The position numbers and the translations under genes were made by a program. A DNA stretch of 51,064 nucleotides from an uncultured bacterium. Its GTDB lineage: Bacteria; CSSED10-310; CAZUFC01. The notes beneath the pieces were generated by a model that was not told the DNA's origin, did not search any database, and saw only the letters and a list, made by a program, of their open reading frames with translations. Of the stretch, positions 13,237 through 21,072 are shown piece after piece. The stretch covers positions 19,804-70,867 of the forward strand of contig CAZUFC010000030.1 of the NCBI GenBank assembly GCA_964619725.1, read 5' to 3'. The stretch's first letter is position 1. Each line of letters opens with the position of its first letter.

Positions 13237-14136
13237 TCACTCCGCTCCTCCCTGACTCTCCGTCAAAGCTTCAAAACCGGATACTATATCCAGCAGTTCA
13301 GCGGTTATGGAAGACTGGCGGCGGCGATGATACAGCTTGTTCAATTCCTCCAGCCGGTCATTGATGTTCCTCTCAGCAGCCTGCATGGAAGAAAGCCTGG
13401 CCGCATTCTCCGCGGTCAGTGATTCACTTATCGTCTTGAATAATGTAACGAAAAAATATTCTCTGAGCAAAGCGCGGAAAAGCTGATGCCAATCCATCGT
13501 ATAATCGGGCAGCGTATTTGATTTCCATTCTTTACTTTCCAGCCCTTCCAGCATGCGTTGGTTCAAAGGAAGCAGAAAAGAGATAGCAGGCTCATAGGAA
13601 GCTCCTGGAACCGGTTTATTGTGAAAAAGTATAATCCTGTCCGCCTTATCGAACAAACGCATTTCCTCCATTTCTATGATCAGGCGCCTTAATTTGTCGG
13701 AAAGGTCGGCCAGGGTTCCCGATACGGTGAACTGCTTCTCTGTTTTCAACCCTTCATCTTCCAGCGAACCGGTCACGCGCTCGCCTAATGAGAAGATATG
13801 CACTTTTTCCGGTTGCGCCGACAGTTTTCCTATATTTTCAACTGCGTAGGAGGCGATTTTTTCATTGAATTTGCCGCACATGCCCTGTTCGGAGCCGAAA
13901 ACGACCGCTGCCTCTGTTTTATCGCTCTTCTGTTCATAGAATTTAAAATCCCGGGGTTTGTTTCTCATCAGTATCTGGAACCCCATTTCCACCGTATGGT
14001 AGTAATGATTGAGCGATTCGGCGGCCTTTTCATATCTTGTTATACTGACTGCAGCCAGCGATTTCATTGTTTTTACTACTGAACGGAGTTCTTTGGCGCT
14101 GTTTATTTTGTCTCTTAATTCGTCAAGCTGTTCCAT
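13237..14136 (-). CDS. atpG: N-ATPase (F-type) gamma subunit.
   Basis: The 299-aa ORF is the last gene of the atpDCQRBEFAG cluster. Its C-terminus is typical of a gamma subunit (...AELLDIVSGFEAL). Confidence 0.85.
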   Translation of the reverse strand: MEQLDELRDKINSAKELRSVVKTMKSLAAVSITRYEKAAESLNHYYHTVEMGFQILMRNKPRDFKFYEQKSDKTEAAVVFGSEQGMCGKFNEKIASYAVENIGKLSAQPEKVHIFSLGERVTGSLEDEGLKTEKQFTVSGTLADLSDKLRRLIIEMEEMRLFDKADRIILFHNKPVPGASYEPAISFLLPLNQRMLEGLESKEWKSNTLPDYTMDWHQLFRALLREYFFVTLFKTISESLTAENAARLSSMQAAERNINDRLEELNKLYHRRRQSSITAELLDIVSGFEALTESQGGAE

Positions 14137-14139
14137 AGT

Positions 14140-15711
14140 TCAATTATCTTCTGAATTCCTGCCGGTCATCTGCTCAGCAAATTTTGTCAGTGAATTAATA
14201 TCTTCATCATTCAGGGTTTCGCCTTTTTTGATTTTTCTGCAGATATCGGGACGCTCTTCACTGACGTTCTTTCTGATTTTTTCTTCAGCGTCATAGATTT
14301 CATCCAGTTCCAGCGGGTCAAATACGCCTTGATTGACGGCCGTTATGACGGCTATCTGTTCTGGAACCGTCATGGGATCGAATTCCTTCTGTTTAAGGAT
14401 TTCTCTGACTCGTCTGCCCCTGGCCAGGGTCTTCCGGGTTTCATCATCGAGCCTTGTGCCGAACCTGGCGAAGGATTCGAGTTCTTCAAACTGTGAATAG
14501 GAAAGCCTCAGATCGCCTGCCACGCCGCGATAGGCAGGAAGCTGCGTTTTTCCTCCCACGCGTGAAACCGATCTTCCGACCTCAACAGCCGGCATTCTGC
14601 CTTCCTCGAATAATTTAGGCGAAAGATAAATCTGTCCGTCCGTTATTGATATAAGATTAGTCGGAATATAGGCGGATAAGTTTTCTGCCTGAGTTTCTAT
14701 AATGGGCAAAGCAGTCAACGAACCTCCGCCGTATTCTTCTTTCAGATGAGTGGAACGTTCCAGGAGTCGTGAATGAATATAAAAAATATCGCCCGGATAA
14801 GCTTCCCTGGCCGGCGGACGGCGCAACAGCAGCGAAGCTTCGCGATAAGCCCGGGCATGCCGCGTCAGATCGTCGTAAATCACCAGGGCATCTTTTCCCT
14901 GGTCCATAAAATACTCGCCTATGGTTGTAGCGGCATAAGGAGCCGCAAAGTTCAATCCCGGCGAATCTTCGCCTGTCGCAACCACTACGGCGCTATATTC
15001 CATGGCGCCTCTTTCCTCCAAATCATCAATGACTTTGGCTACGGCTGACGCCCGCTGTCCTATCGCACAATATATGCAGATCACACCCCTCTCTTTCTGG
15101 TTGACGATGGTATCCAGAGCTATTGCCGTCTTGCCTGTCTGACGGTCTCCCAGTATCAGCTCACGCTGGCCTCTTCCCACCGGAATCAGAGCATCCACGA
15201 CTAAAAGGCCGGTCTGCAGAGGAACGCTTACCGGAGCCCGGTCCATTATCGCCGGCGCTTCCTTTTCGGACGGTTTTCTCGTTTCAGCTTTTACCGGTCC
15301 TTTTCCGTCCCGGGGACGCCCCAGCGGATCAATGACCCGGCCCATCAAACCTTCTCCTACCGGTACGTCGAGTATCCTTCCCGTGCGATATACCGGACCG
15401 CCGGCCCTTATGTTCTCGCTTTCATCGAGCAATACGACCGCTATCCTGTCACGGTCAAGATTGAACGCTATTCCCGCCTTATTTCCGGTGAATTCCACGA
15501 TCTCTTCGTAACTGACATTCGGCAATCCCTTCGCCCACACTATGCTGCCGCTTATCGACGTTATTCGGCCTATCTCTTTTTTATGTATACTATATTCATA
15601 CTCCTTCGCTGCCGATGCTACAATTCCGAACGTTTCCTTCAATAATTCGTCAAGTTCCCGTGTGCCGTTTTGATCAATCATTTTATTTACCCGCAACATC
15701 CTGCCGTTCAT
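14140..15711 (-). CDS. atpA: N-ATPase alpha subunit.
   Basis: The 523-aa ORF has the Walker A motif GDRQTGKT and the alpha signature ...DDLT/SKQA. It overlaps atpF by 4 nt. Confidence 0.95.
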
Positions 15712-16463
15712 AGTTTCTCGAATGTCTTGACCGTCTTCTGTTCAAGATCATCCAGGTAATCCTTTAAATTCCATTCATACTTTTTCTCGCCGATTATCAT
15801 CTCAATCCCGCCTACTAAATCCTCCGAAGTCTCAAACTCCAAAAAAACATCAGATGAAAACCTCTCCCGCATATTCTGTCTTACCTCTTCCTTAGCATCC
15901 TCCGACAGCTCGGAACCGCTGATTATCTTTATCTCACGATCGCTGCCCTTTATTTCCCCAATATCTGCTGCAGACTCTTCTTCAGAACTCTCCAGACGGC
16001 CGAACAACTTGCGCACAATCAGACTCTCCAATCTCGAATCGGAAAGCTCCTTCAACGCACGCCCCGAAATGTCGAATACGCCTTCAGCCGCACGAATTCG
16101 CAGCTCATGTAAAAATTCGCTTTTCTGTTTCCGTATGCCTTCCCACATTTTCTCCCTGTTTGCCTCCGCATCCTGCCGCGCTTCTTCCAGCAATCGCTTC
16201 CGCTTTTCTTCCGCTTCCTTTTCCGCTTTTTTCGTCAATTCCTCGCTTTTCGACTCCAATTCCTCTTTCTTTTCCAGGTATTCTTTTTCCGCTTGCTCGG
16301 CTTTTCGCCGCTTTTCTTCAGCCTCTTCAATTTCAGACCTGATCTTTTTCGCCCGGCGGTCCATCACCTCAATGATCCGCTTATACAGAAAATGACGCAA
16401 CAGAAGGATCAGGATTATGAAATTTATGATCTGAGCTATTATGGTGAATAAATCCAGATTCAT
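15708..16463 (-). CDS. atpF: N-ATPase b subunit. It is long and highly charged, and there is no separate delta gene.
   Basis: The 251-aa ORF has an N-terminal TM helix followed by an extended E/K/R-rich helix. No atpH is present in the operon. Confidence 0.8.
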
Positions 16464-19303: not shown

Positions 19304-19306
19304 TTT

Positions 19307-19684
19307 TTACTTCATCTGCAAAAACCGATGGATAAAATCCGATTCCAGTCTGGCGATGACTGATCGGGTCTTCCTTTCCTTTTCATCCAACACAAGAAAT
19401 TCATCCTCAACAGCCTGTCGTAATTCTCCCAGTCGTTTGCCCCGTATCGCCCGGCGGGTCGAAATAAATGCCTGATGGCCCTTTTTGATCAGTATGCCGC
19501 CGTCCAGGGCAATAAAAGACTCTTGACCTTCTGACTCATAAATCAATATCCCCGGCTTTAGAGAAGTGAGAAAATCAATATGGCGCGGCAGTATGGTGAA
19601 TGAACCGTTTTCTGCATTCGCCGTTATTTTATCGACCTCGCCGTCCATAAAAATTTCCACCGGGAGAAATATTTTTAACCTCAT
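19307..19684 (-). CDS. atpC: N-ATPase epsilon subunit.
   Basis: The 125-aa ORF has a beta-sandwich N-terminus and helical C-terminus pattern. It follows atpD with a 4-nt overlap. Confidence 0.85.
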
Positions 19685-21072
19685 TTTTTCGCCTCATCTA
19701 TCCCGCCGATCATGTACACAGATTTTTCAGGATAATCCAGGTATTCATCATTCAGTATCTTTTCGCAGCCGTCCAGAGCATCCTCCAGTTCAACCAGTTT
19801 ACCCTCCTTGCCCGTGAATTGCTCCGTAGTAAAGAAAGGCTGAGTCAGAAACCTTTCCAGTCTTCTGGCGCGATTGACCGTCCTTTGATCTTCACGGGAC
19901 AGCTCCTCCAATCCGAGCATCGCGATGATGTCCTTGAGTTCTTCATATTGCGCCAGTGTCCGGCGGATATTCTGGGCCAGCCGGTAGTGCCTGTTTCCCA
20001 CCACTCCGGGATTCAGCATCTTGGAGCGGGACTGGAGCGGGTCCACTGCCGGATACAATCCCTGAGCCGCTCGCTTCCTGGATAAAACGACAGAAGCTGA
20101 AAGATGACCGAAAGTGTGAACAGCCGCCGGGTCAGTAAAATCATCCGCCGGCACGTATATAGCCTGTACAGAAGAAATCGACCCTGATTTCGTGCTGCAT
20201 ATCCGCTCTTCAAGCTCCGCCAGCTCCGTACCTAAAGTAGGCTGATAGCCCACACGGGAAGGCAAATGACCCATCAAACCCGATACCTCAGAACCCGCCT
20301 GGATGAAACGGAAAATGTTGTCGATCAAAAGCAATACGTCCTGACCCACATCATCACGGAAATACTCGGCAATAGTCAAAGCCGCATGACCCACACGGAA
20401 ACGCGCTCCCGGCTGCTCGTTCATCTGTCCGAATACCATTACGGCATTCTCCAACACTCCGACATCCTTTAACTCACGATAAAGCTCCTCTCCTTCCCGG
20501 CAACGCTCCCCGATACCGCAAAATAAACTCATCCCTTCATGCTCGCCCGCCATGTTGTTGATCATCTCCATGATAAGCACGGTCTTTCCCACTCCTGCGC
20601 CGCCGAATAATCCCGCCTTGCCGCCCTTCTCCAACGGAGCAAGAACGTCGATAACCTTTATCCCCGTCGTGAATATCTCTCGTTGAGTTGTCCGGTCGAC
20701 CATGGGAACTGGAGGCTGATGAATTGATCGCAATTCCACATCTTCCAATTCGCCCGCTTTGTCGATGGCATCACCGAATATATTCAATACCCGGCCTCGA
20801 AGATTACGGCCCACCGGTATGCTCAGAGGCTTCCCCGCATCTTCGACAGGAGCCCCACGATAAAGACCGCGTGAAGCCGTCAAAGCGATCCCCCGTACAG
20901 TCTCCGAATCAATATGAGATGCCGTCTCTATTACCACTTCTCCCGATTCCCCCGCATTCAACCGGTTGTTCACGTCAGGAAGAAAATCAGGAAAACGGGC
21001 ATCCACTATGCTCCCCCGTATCGACACCACCGTCCCCATGTTCCGGCTATCATTTTTATCCTCCGCCGTCAT
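19681..21072 (-). CDS. atpD: N-ATPase beta subunit.
   Basis: The P-loop is GGAGVGKT and the DELSEED-region equivalent is present. I start it at Met37 of the ORF-track ORF (MTAEDKND..), giving 463 aa. The upstream 36 codons are atypical for a beta subunit. Confidence 0.9.

What the first reader, a model, noticed from the sequence alone, without database searches (positions are those of the whole stretch)
13237..21072. Complete N-type ATPase operon whose c subunit carries a full Na+-ligand set plus a second helix-1 glutamate
The c subunit at 16477-16746 carries E-S-T..Y in helix 2 (LAMIESTAIYCFVIAIIL), matching the Na+-binding residues Glu65/Ser66/Thr67/Tyr70 of the Ilyobacter tartaricus c-ring. 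It also has Glu (IGEAI) at the helix-1 position where I. tartaricus has Gln32. The two-carboxylate arrangement is the published hallmark of N-ATPase proteolipids. Together with the gene order and a long b subunit replacing delta, this identifies a Na+-translocating N-ATPase rather than the housekeeping F-ATPase, which must be encoded elsewhere.
Basis: partly seen in the sequence, partly recalled or inferred. Interest (0 to 1): 0.55.

Follow-up and report, generated by a model that had tools for sequence, protein, structure and literature searches.

The report
N-ATPase operon with embedded Na+/H+ antiporter
This is an intact copy of a known "second" rotary ATPase (N-ATPase) whose rotor subunit has the residues of a sodium-binding site.

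Summary
On the minus strand, 21072 to 13237, lies an intact N-ATPase ("alternate F1F0") operon. Its 89-aa c subunit (16477-16746) has Glu30 in helix 1 and Glu63-Ser64-Thr65..Tyr68 in helix 2. These align residue for residue with Glu32/Glu65/Ser66/Thr67/Tyr70 of the crystallised Na+-binding Fusobacterium nucleatum c-ring, and so with Gln32/Glu65/Ser66/Thr67/Tyr70 of Ilyobacter tartaricus.

This is the motif Dibrova et al. (2010) described for most N-ATPases, so the finding as stated is a new member of a known kind.

A 411-aa NapA-like CPA2 cation/proton antiporter (17767-19002) lies between atpQ and atpR, with 8-nt overlaps on both sides. All NapA ion-site residues are conserved.

- The same atpDCQ-[antiporter]-RBEFAG layout occurs in about 18 other lineages.
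- In one Aminicenantes genome syntenic with this window, the antiporter sits directly upstream of atpD instead.
- Only 1 of 46 comparable metagenomic N-ATPase operons carries it.
- I found no paper describing it.

The most likely function is ATP-driven Na+ extrusion electrically coupled to Na+/H+ exchange. That step is inferred. A second, housekeeping ATP synthase cannot be checked from this window.

The parts
19681..21072 (-). atpD, N-ATPase beta subunit (463 aa)
   Evidence: TIGR03305 'alternate F1F0 ATPase beta' scores 800 bits against a cut-off of 752. GGAGG lies 6 nt before the ATG at 21072.
19307..19684 (-). atpC, epsilon subunit (125 aa)
   Evidence: TIGR03166 137.7 bits (cut-off 100.1) and PF02823. 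It overlaps atpD by 4 nt.
18995..19303 (-). atpQ (102 aa), small membrane protein
   Evidence: PF09527 56 bits; TIGR02230 127 bits (cut-off 46.7).
17767..19002 (-). NapA-like CPA2 cation/proton antiporter (411 aa), inserted between atpQ and atpR
   Evidence: PF00999 152 bits. The closest solved structure is T. thermophilus NapA, E 2e-33 over the full length. The equivalents of NapA Thr126/Ser127, Asp156/Asp157, Lys305, Arg331 and Glu333 are Thr136/Ser137, Asp166/Asp167, Lys326, Arg353 and Glu355. They are invariant in all 17 homologues aligned. The gene overlaps atpQ and atpR by 8 nt each. The identical protein in the same gene order is on an independent assembly, SRR7048225.
17463..17774 (-). 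atpR (103 aa), the N-ATPase-specific membrane protein
   Evidence: PF12966 61 bits (cut-off 26); TIGR03165 57.2 bits (cut-off 55.5). Arg32 and Arg50 lie at the positions of the arginines seen in the other AtpR sequences.
16739..17461 (-). atpB, a subunit (240 aa)
   Evidence: TIGR03306 324.7 bits (cut-off 302.1). The stator arginine Arg164 lies in AVRLFGN.
16477..16746 (-). atpE, c subunit (89 aa) with a two-carboxylate Na+-type site
   Evidence: TIGR03322 145.5 bits (cut-off 130.85). Codon positions: Glu30 16657-16659, Glu63 16558-16560, Ser64 16555-16557, Thr65 16552-16554, Tyr68 16543-16545. They align to F. nucleatum Glu32/Glu65/Ser66/Thr67/Tyr70.
15708..16463 (-). atpF, long b subunit (251 aa) with a delta-like C-terminus
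   Evidence: PF00430 matches residues 7-132. PF00213 (OSCP) scores 27.1 bits (cut-off 22.3) on residues 176-242, matching profile positions 103-170 of 172. TIGR03321 scores 215 bits, below its cut-off of 224.7.
14140..15711 (-). atpA, alpha subunit (523 aa)
   Evidence: TIGR03324 794 bits (cut-off 750.5).
13237..14136 (-). atpG, gamma subunit (299 aa)
   Evidence: TIGR03323 314.4 bits (cut-off 282.35).
13167..13186 (-). terminator-like hairpin after atpG (GGCGC..GCGCC followed by a T-rich tail)
   Evidence: Consensus scan. The number of such sites in the region is no greater than in shuffled sequence, so only its position speaks for it.

Best explanation
The locus is a ten-gene operon of an uncultured bacterium. 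Synteny suggests an Aminicenantes-like organism.

It encodes a complete N-type rotary ATPase: beta, epsilon, AtpQ, AtpR, a, c, a b-delta fusion, alpha and gamma. It also encodes a NapA-like CPA2 cation/proton antiporter that is translationally coupled between atpQ and atpR.

Shown here:
- the family membership of every gene;
- the c subunit carries the same ligand set as the Na+-binding two-carboxylate c-ring of F. nucleatum;
- the antiporter keeps every NapA ion-site residue;
- the antiporter/N-ATPase linkage recurs in many lineages and in two different arrangements.

Inferred:
- The ATPase hydrolyses ATP to expel Na+ electrogenically, which is the role proposed for N-ATPases.
- The co-expressed electrogenic antiporter uses the resulting membrane potential to exchange further cytoplasmic Na+ for external H+.
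- The pair therefore acts as an ATP-fuelled Na+-out/H+-in module for salt resistance and cytoplasmic pH control. The antiporter also relieves the electrical back-pressure on the pump.
For: Identity:
- Pfam and NCBIfam hits for all nine ATPase genes, with curated N-ATPase cut-offs passed for eight of them.
- AtpR is present, no delta gene is present, and the b subunit has an OSCP-like C-terminus.

Ion site:
- The alignment to 3zk1 and 1yce.
- In the F. nucleatum structure, Na+ is bound by Glu32, Glu65, Ser66, the Val63 carbonyl and a water held by Thr67, with Tyr70 hydrogen-bonded to Glu65. That enzyme is Na+-dependent.
- All 17 further c subunits read from CPA2-linked operons keep GE...[I/V]ESTAIY.

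Antiporter:
- Similarity to NapA and invariant Thr-Ser / Asp-Asp / Lys / Arg / Glu residues.

Linkage:
- 11 of 15 GTDB loci found through the antiporter have it between atpQ and atpR.
- 6 of 10 further homologues do too, and one more has it directly upstream of atpD.
- The start and stop codons of the antiporter gene and its neighbours overlap in the window.
- In the beta+alpha tree, 17 of the 19 operons in two adjacent clades are CPA2-linked, and 0 of the 16 outside them are.
- The window plus L004 pairing is seen in both the ATPase and antiporter trees.

Pump role:
- Dibrova 2010 argues that N-ATPases are ATP-driven pumps.
- The A. halophytica N-type enzyme is reported as Na+-coupled and linked to salt tolerance.

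Neighbourhood:
- The window is rich in stress genes: BON, Hsp20 and Lon-like.
Against: - No experiment exists on this or any CPA2-linked N-ATPase.
- The one N-type c-ring tested (B. pseudomallei) is H+-specific despite its second Glu, although it lacks the Ser-Thr pair.
- In Synechococcus 7002, N-ATPase transcripts did not rise at high salt.
- CPA2 members include K+/H+ exchangers. JGI annotates the homologues as Kef-type. The TIGR00932 CPA2 model scores below its cut-off, 118 vs 238.
- Close antiporter homologues also occur free-standing, in cyanobacteria, an Aminicenantes MAG and four GTDB loci.
- 45 of 46 comparable N-ATPase operons do without the antiporter, so the coupling is not obligatory.
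- Tree backbones are weakly supported, so a single origin is not established.
Confidence: 0.6

Rival explanations
1. The enzyme works mainly as a Na+-motive-force-driven ATP synthase. The antiporter converts proton-motive force or membrane potential into a Na+ gradient (Na+ out, H+ in). Na+ then re-enters through the N-ATPase to make ATP. This would be a Na+-cycle bypass, useful at alkaline pH where the proton gradient is poor.
For: - The same c-ring ligand set drives ATP synthesis in F. nucleatum.
- All catalytic subunits are full length.
- An electrogenic NapA-type exchanger is what such a cycle would need.
- The c17 ring of the B. pseudomallei N-ATPase gives a high ion/ATP ratio. By general bioenergetics this favours synthesis at low driving force; that is my inference.
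Against: - Deleting the N-ATPase operon in M. acetivorans did not affect growth or ATP synthesis, and N-ATPases nearly always accompany another rotary ATPase.
- The one expressed Na+ N-ATPase is linked to salt tolerance.
Confidence: 0.2
2. The antiporter gene is a passenger. It landed at a permissive junction of a mobile operon and has no mechanistic tie to the ATPase. It may also be a K+/H+ exchanger unrelated to the Na+ economy.
For: - The atpQ/atpR junction and other junctions accept unrelated genes in relatives: S30AE/CSD in L103, a baeRF-family gene between atpA and atpG in L099 and L101, and unidentified inserts in L057, L032 and L091.
- Free-standing close homologues exist and interleave with operon-borne ones in the tree.
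- 45 of 46 similar operons lack the gene.
Against: - The linkage is kept in about 18 lineages from at least six named groups (Syntrophobacteria, Desulfobacteraceae, Desulfovibrionaceae, Zixibacteria, Abyssubacteria, KSB1).
- It survives a rearrangement: the gene is upstream of atpD in L108.
- Overlapping start and stop codons are common across these operons.
- All ion-site residues are invariant, so the gene is under selection.
Confidence: 0.13
3. The N-ATPase here is proton-coupled, an ATP-driven H+ pump like the one in B. pseudomallei. The antiporter then uses that proton gradient to expel Na+.
For: - B. pseudomallei's N-type ring with two glutamates binds H+.
- ProAD predicts about half of all N-ATPases to be H+-type.
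- A primary H+ pump with a secondary Na+/H+ antiporter is the classical bacterial arrangement (established knowledge).
Against: - This c subunit has Ser64 and Thr65, where B. pseudomallei has Thr62 and Met63.
- The full set equals that of a crystallographically Na+-occupied site.
- Dibrova 2010 states that only c subunits with the full ligand set transport Na+, and this one has it.
Confidence: 0.07

Closest known systems
N-ATPase (atpDCQRBEFAG; Dibrova, Galperin & Mulkidjanian 2010; NCBIfam 'alternate F1F0 ATPase')
   Same: All nine genes are in the same order. AtpR and AtpQ are present. There is no delta gene, and the long b subunit has a delta-like tail. The c subunit has Glu in both helices plus ESTxxY.
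   Different: A tenth gene, a CPA2 antiporter, lies between atpQ and atpR. The 2010 paper mentions insertions only in Acaryochloris (one gene) and Cyanothece (two genes) and does not name them in the text. ProAD defines the type as beta-epsilon-X-X-a-c-(b-delta)-alpha-gamma.
Fusobacterium nucleatum F-type Na+ ATP synthase c11 ring (PDB 3ZK1; Schulz et al. 2013)
   Same: The ion-site side chains are identical: Glu32/Glu65/Ser66/Thr67/Tyr70 correspond to Glu30/Glu63/Ser64/Thr65/Tyr68 here.
   Different: That enzyme is the organism's housekeeping F-type synthase, with a delta subunit and no AtpR. The c subunits share the site but belong to different clades: the N-type model TIGR03322 is met here. 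The ring stoichiometry here is unknown.
Burkholderia pseudomallei N-ATPase c17 ring (Schulz et al. 2017)
   Same: Same family and operon type, with a second Glu in helix 1 and the stator Arg164 in subunit a.
   Different: Its site is Glu61-Thr62-Met63..Tyr66 and it is H+-specific. Here it is Glu-Ser-Thr..Tyr. No antiporter gene is listed among its nine ORFs.
Thermus thermophilus NapA (PDB 4BWZ/5BZ2/5BZ3), a CPA2 Na+/H+ antiporter
   Same: It is the only solved homologue found by sequence (E 2e-33, full length). The Thr-Ser of the unwound TM4, the Asp-Asp pair, Lys305, Arg331 and Glu333 are all conserved. Like NapA, the protein has no C-terminal regulatory domain.
   Different: The similarity is modest (119 bits over the full length), so this is a relative and not an orthologue. 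The substrate (Na+, Li+ or K+) and the stoichiometry are untested. NapA is not known to be encoded in an ATPase operon (my knowledge).
Enterococcus hirae V-type Na+-ATPase ntp operon, which ends with ntpJ, a KtrB-type K+ transporter gene (my knowledge; not checked with the tools)
   Same: It is a precedent for a secondary cation transporter co-transcribed with a Na+-pumping rotary ATPase, thought to balance charge and cations.
   Different: A different ATPase class (V/A-type), a different transporter family (Ktr, not CPA2), and the transporter gene is at the end of the operon, not inside it.

Membership tests
N-ATPase | Gene order atpD-atpC-atpQ-atpR-atpB-atpE-atpF-atpA-atpG | tested here: met
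   The order is kept on the minus strand from 21072 to 13237, with one extra gene between atpQ and atpR.
N-ATPase | Presence of atpR (PF12966 / TIGR03165), the tell-tale gene | tested here: met
   PF12966 61.2 bits (cut-off 26); TIGR03165 57.2 bits (cut-off 55.5).
N-ATPase | atpQ (PF09527) in place of atpI | tested here: met
   PF09527 56.4 bits; TIGR02230 127.4 bits.
N-ATPase | No delta (atpH) gene; long b subunit with a delta-like C-terminus | tested here: met
   No OSCP-only ORF is in the operon. The b subunit is 251 aa, and residues 176-242 match OSCP profile positions 103-170 of 172 at 27.1 bits (cut-off 22.3).
N-ATPase | Subunits group with the N-type clade and not the F-type clade | tested here: met
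   The N-type-specific NCBIfam models outscore the F-type models and pass their cut-offs for beta, alpha, gamma, a, c and epsilon. Subunit b scores 215.1 against a cut-off of 224.7. The closest loci found are all N-type operons.
N-ATPase | c subunit with Glu in both helices and ESTxxY (true of most members, not all) | tested here: met
   Glu30, and Glu63-Ser64-Thr65-x-x-Tyr68, in register with 3zk1 and 1yce.
N-ATPase | Present as a second rotary ATPase beside an F- or A-type enzyme | not testable with these tools
   No other rotary-ATPase gene is in the 51-kb window. The source contig is 70.9 kb, and the rest of the genome is not available.
N-ATPase | ATP-driven Na+ (or H+) export rather than ATP synthesis | not testable with these tools
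   This needs biochemistry. The literature basis is given.
CPA2 / NapA-type cation:proton antiporter | Na_H_Exchanger fold across the whole protein | tested here: met
   PF00999 152 bits, residues 20-401 against profile positions 2-375 of 375. NapA matches at E 2e-33 over residues 19-404.
CPA2 / NapA-type cation:proton antiporter | TM5 Asp-Asp pair and TM10 Lys (the signature of electrogenic exchangers), with Thr-Ser in the unwound TM4 | tested here: met
   Asp166/Asp167, Lys326 and Thr136/Ser137 align to NapA Asp156/Asp157, Lys305 and Thr126/Ser127. They are invariant in 17 homologues.
CPA2 / NapA-type cation:proton antiporter | NCBIfam CPA2 subfamily model TIGR00932 above its cut-off | tested here: not met
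   118.3 bits against a cut-off of 238.3. I therefore file it as NapA-like within the Na_H_Exchanger superfamily, not as a certified CPA2 equivalog.
CPA2 / NapA-type cation:proton antiporter | Na+(Li+)/H+ exchange activity | not testable with these tools
   The substrate could be Na+, Li+ or K+.

The most novel reading that the evidence does not exclude
A distinct sub-type of N-ATPase operon has recruited a NapA-like electrogenic antiporter as a fixed partner. The antiporter lies inside the operon between the two N-specific membrane proteins AtpQ and AtpR, or directly upstream. The two machines would work as one ATP-fuelled Na+-out/H+-in exchanger for saline or alkaline survival of low-energy anaerobes, possibly with a physical or assembly link through AtpQ/AtpR. 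If so, the partner gene would reveal the physiological direction and ion of these N-ATPases, which are still argued about.
Probability: 0.3. Interest if true: 0.55.

Novelty: new variant of a known kind. Interest (0 to 1): 0.33.

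Why it matters
It is one more N-ATPase with the sodium-type rotor already described in 2010, and ProAD counts about 1,800 such enzymes.

The part worth keeping is the conserved pairing with an antiporter. What N-ATPases do in cells is still unsettled: pump or synthase, Na+ or H+, and what AtpQ and AtpR are for. Only two enzymes have been touched experimentally.

An operon that always co-expresses a Na+-type rotor with an electrogenic Na+/H+ exchanger gives a compact, clonable ten-gene system. 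In it, those alternatives make different, measurable predictions.

The pairing also matters for annotation. Rule-based detection that expects exactly two genes between epsilon and a (ProAD's definition) may not be matched by this layout.

Tried and rejected
- **Archaeal origin.** I considered a Methanosarcina-type origin. It is rejected: the neighbours include NAD-dependent LigA and an AceE-type pyruvate dehydrogenase complex, and the LigA relatives are all bacterial.
- **Leader RNA.** I looked for a Na+/Li+ riboswitch or any other Rfam family in the operon leader and in the whole window. There were no hits at gathering score and only noise at E below 5.
- **Promoter and terminator scans.** They give no more sites than shuffled sequence. 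I cite only the hairpin after atpG, for its position.
- **Naming the organism.** Exact-sequence look-ups show that the proteins are singletons from a 70.9-kb NCBI contig with no names. The beta subunit is not in the contig index. A search for the run accession SRR7048225 in papers found nothing. Synteny with an Aminicenantes MAG is the best clue.
- **Single acquisition.** I tried to show that the antiporter was acquired once. Neighbour-joining trees place the linked operons in two adjacent clades, but backbone support is 35-65% and non-linked operons interleave. The question stays open.
- **Cyanobacterial insertions.** I asked whether the insertions noted by Dibrova in cyanobacteria are this gene. 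The supplement is not held. The two cyanobacterial homologues I looked up are free-standing.
- **Failed run.** The first bootstrap run timed out and gave no result.

Full report
**What is there.**
Between 21072 and 13237 on the minus strand lie ten tightly packed genes. Pfam and NCBIfam identify nine of them as atpD (beta), atpC (epsilon), atpQ, atpR, atpB (a), atpE (c), atpF (b), atpA (alpha) and atpG (gamma).

These are of the 'alternate F1F0' type, that is, N-ATPase. The N-type-specific models score above their curated cut-offs for beta (800/752), alpha (794/750.5), gamma (314/282), a (325/302), c (145.5/130.85), epsilon, AtpQ and AtpR. Subunit b is just below its cut-off, 215/224.7.

All matches cover the profiles end to end, so the genes are intact. 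There is no delta gene. The b subunit is 251 aa, and its residues 176-242 match the last third of the OSCP/delta profile. This is the b-delta fusion described for the family.

Gene junctions are overlaps of 4 or 8 nt, or gaps of at most 13 nt. A GGAGG precedes the ATG at 21072. The longer TTG-initiated ORF to 21180 is therefore probably not used. Operon GC (0.483) is like that of the window (0.467).

**The c subunit.**
The 89-aa product of 16477-16746 aligns to the F. nucleatum c subunit (PDB 3zk1) with one single-residue gap before the site.
- Glu30 falls on Glu32.
- Met61 falls on Val63.
- Glu63/Ser64/Thr65 fall on Glu65/Ser66/Thr67.
- Tyr68 falls on Tyr70.

The I. tartaricus chain 1yce aligns in the same register, query 5-83 to chain 8-85. 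In the F. nucleatum crystal structure those side chains bind Na+. A water molecule held by Thr67 completes the site, the extra Glu32 stays protonated, and the enzyme is Na+-dependent.

It is also not unusual. Dibrova et al. state that most N-ATPase c subunits have Glu in both helices and a full Na+ ligand set. ProAD predicts 914 of 1,807 N-type enzymes to be Na+-type.

Na+ coupling remains a prediction. The only N-type ring tested, from B. pseudomallei (Glu30/Glu61-Thr-Met..Tyr), binds H+.

The gene at 17767-19002, between atpQ and atpR, encodes a 411-aa Na_H_Exchanger protein (PF00999, 152 bits). It overlaps both neighbours by 8 nt.

Its only solved relative by sequence is the electrogenic Na+/H+ antiporter NapA of T. 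thermophilus, at E 2e-33 over the full length. NapA's Thr126/Ser127, Asp156/Asp157, Lys305, Arg331 and Glu333 correspond to Thr136/Ser137, Asp166/Asp167, Lys326, Arg353 and Glu355. All of these are invariant in 17 homologues.

The protein has no C-terminal regulatory domain. The curated CPA2 model TIGR00932 is not passed, 118 vs 238. I therefore call it NapA-like, and the substrate (Na+, Li+ or K+) is open.

An independent assembly (SRR7048225) carries the identical protein in the same gene order, so this is not an assembly artefact.

**Is the pairing accidental?**
- A scan of GTDB species genomes with the antiporter found 15 loci at 38-54% identity. In 11 of them the gene sits in exactly the same slot, atpDCQ-[antiporter]-RBEFAG. 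These are MAGs labelled Syntrophobacteria, Desulfobacteraceae, Desulfovibrionaceae and Zixibacteria.
- Among ten further homologues looked up by context, six are again between atpQ and atpR. They include Abyssubacteria, KSB1 and unnamed metagenome contigs.
- One of the ten, an Aminicenantes MAG (L108), has the antiporter immediately upstream of atpD.
- Three of the ten are free-standing: two cyanobacteria and one Aminicenantes.
- The four remaining GTDB loci are also free-standing, in unrelated contexts.

Altogether 18 of 25 homologues are linked to an N-ATPase, in two different arrangements. All 17 further c subunits read from the linked operons keep the Glu plus ESTAIY motif.

Conversely, a metagenome scan with the c subunit returned 80 N-ATPase loci. 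Of the 46 that span atpQ to atpB, only one has the insertion. The linked form is therefore a small minority of N-ATPase operons.

In a beta+alpha neighbour-joining tree the linked operons fill two adjacent clades (17 of 19 members), and none of the 16 operons outside them is linked. The node joining the two clades has only 35% bootstrap support. Trees of the membrane subunits interleave a few unlinked operons.

Pairings such as window+L004, L003+L010 and L006+L007 recur in the antiporter tree. This suggests co-inheritance. One gain followed by losses and relocations is the simplest reading, but it is not proven.

**Literature.**
Full-text searches combining N-ATPase or N-type ATPase with antiporter, CPA2, atpQ or atpR found no description of an antiporter gene inside these operons.
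- Dibrova 2010 notes unnamed one- and two-gene insertions in Acaryochloris and Cyanothece. Its supplement is not held.
- ProAD's operational definition allows exactly two genes between epsilon and a.

The library excludes most subscription journals, so this absence of evidence is limited.

**Host and context.**
The window's proteins are singletons at 90% clustering and come from a 70.9-kb NCBI contig. LigA's best relatives are only 65-69% identical. Where named, they are Aminicenantes, Thermodesulfobacteriota, Chloroflexota and Desulfobacterales MAGs.

In the Aminicenantes MAG L108 the operon is followed by DUF72, PolX and LigA. In the window it is followed by PolX (11407-13125) and LigA (9348-11390), and a DUF72 gene lies at 592-1329. 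The host is thus a bacterium, probably Aminicenantes-like.

No other rotary-ATPase gene is in the window. The 'second copy' criterion cannot be tested here.

The surroundings are rich in stress-type genes: BON-domain proteins, Hsp20, a Lon-like protease, hemerythrin and a PfkB kinase. Similar genes flank related operons, including PfkB, BON, GAPDH, PEP synthase, trehalose synthase, Usp and an S30AE/CSD gene.

**Mechanism.**
Shown: family membership, the Na+-type ligand set, intact antiporter chemistry, and conserved linkage with overlapping start and stop codons.

Inferred: the enzyme hydrolyses ATP to expel Na+, which is the role argued for N-ATPases. This builds a membrane potential. The NapA-like exchanger then uses that potential to swap further cytoplasmic Na+ for external H+. 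The net result is ATP-fuelled Na+ extrusion with proton retention, which suits saline or alkaline stress in organisms with a weak respiratory proton gradient.

I put about 0.6 on this. The rivals are:
- a Na+-cycle ATP synthase fed by the antiporter (0.2);
- a passenger antiporter, or one specific for K+ (0.13);
- an H+-coupled pump whose gradient drives the antiporter (0.07).

**Verdict.**
As stated, however, it describes a textbook N-ATPase. The added value is the embedded, conserved antiporter, which makes this a modestly interesting variant of a known system.

Noticed in passing
window 21364-21476 (ORF 21358-21522, minus strand): About 19 tandem copies of a CCCGAT-like hexamer lie roughly 290 nt upstream of atpD. 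On the operon strand they sit inside a 54-aa ORF ending in an Asp-rich DP/DS/DT run. I cannot say whether this is a coding sequence, a regulatory element or just simple-sequence DNA.
   Followed up: partly
window 9348-13125 and 592-1329; L108 15691-18650: The genes after atpG (PolX, then NAD-dependent LigA, with a DUF72 gene further on) match the DUF72-PolX-LigA run that follows the N-ATPase operon in an Aminicenantes MAG. This points to an Aminicenantes-like host.
   Followed up: partly
L108 7433-8650: In that Aminicenantes MAG the same antiporter subfamily sits directly upstream of atpD instead of between atpQ and atpR. This is a second arrangement of the same linkage.
   Followed up: yes
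L099 10906-12078; L101 9274-10939; L103 11338-11910: Related N-ATPase operons carry other inserted genes. A baeRF-family (bacterial eRF1-like) gene lies between atpA and atpG, joined by a DUF2267 gene in L101. A ribosome-hibernation-like S30AE+CSD gene lies between the antiporter and atpR in L103. Unidentified inserts also occur in L057 (between atpD and atpC), L032 (atpE and atpF) and L091 (atpA and atpG).
   Followed up: no
L104 2753-7224 vs L103 4778-11236: A free-standing antiporter in one Aminicenantes MAG follows a Tricorn-like protease gene. In L103 the same kind of gene precedes the whole antiporter-bearing operon. Either the ATPase genes around the antiporter were lost, or the antiporter moved. 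This is unexplained.
   Followed up: no
window 1447-8817, 24710-26306, 35278-35838: A stress-type neighbourhood: a LonC-like protease, two three-BON-domain proteins, two Hsp20 genes, a hemerythrin and a PfkB kinase. PfkB, BON, GAPDH, PEP synthase, trehalose synthase and Usp genes also flank related antiporter-bearing operons.
   Followed up: partly
window 41428-43613 (minus strand): An encapsulin shell gene (Linocin_M18) and an EncFtn cargo gene lie next to a multihaem c-type cytochrome gene.
   Followed up: no
window 28416-34890: A pyruvate/2-oxoacid dehydrogenase cluster: E2, E3, a short-chain dehydrogenase, and a 910-aa AceE-type E1.
   Followed up: no
window 39530-41479 and 35984-37150 (minus strand): Two large ORFs (649 aa and 388 aa) have no Pfam match at E below 1e-4.
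   Followed up: no
window 21736-24128 (minus strand): Directly upstream of the operon, on the same strand, is a PAS-domain protein, then a response regulator, then a PAS/HisKA_2 histidine kinase. They are candidate regulators, but no link to the operon was tested.
   Followed up: no
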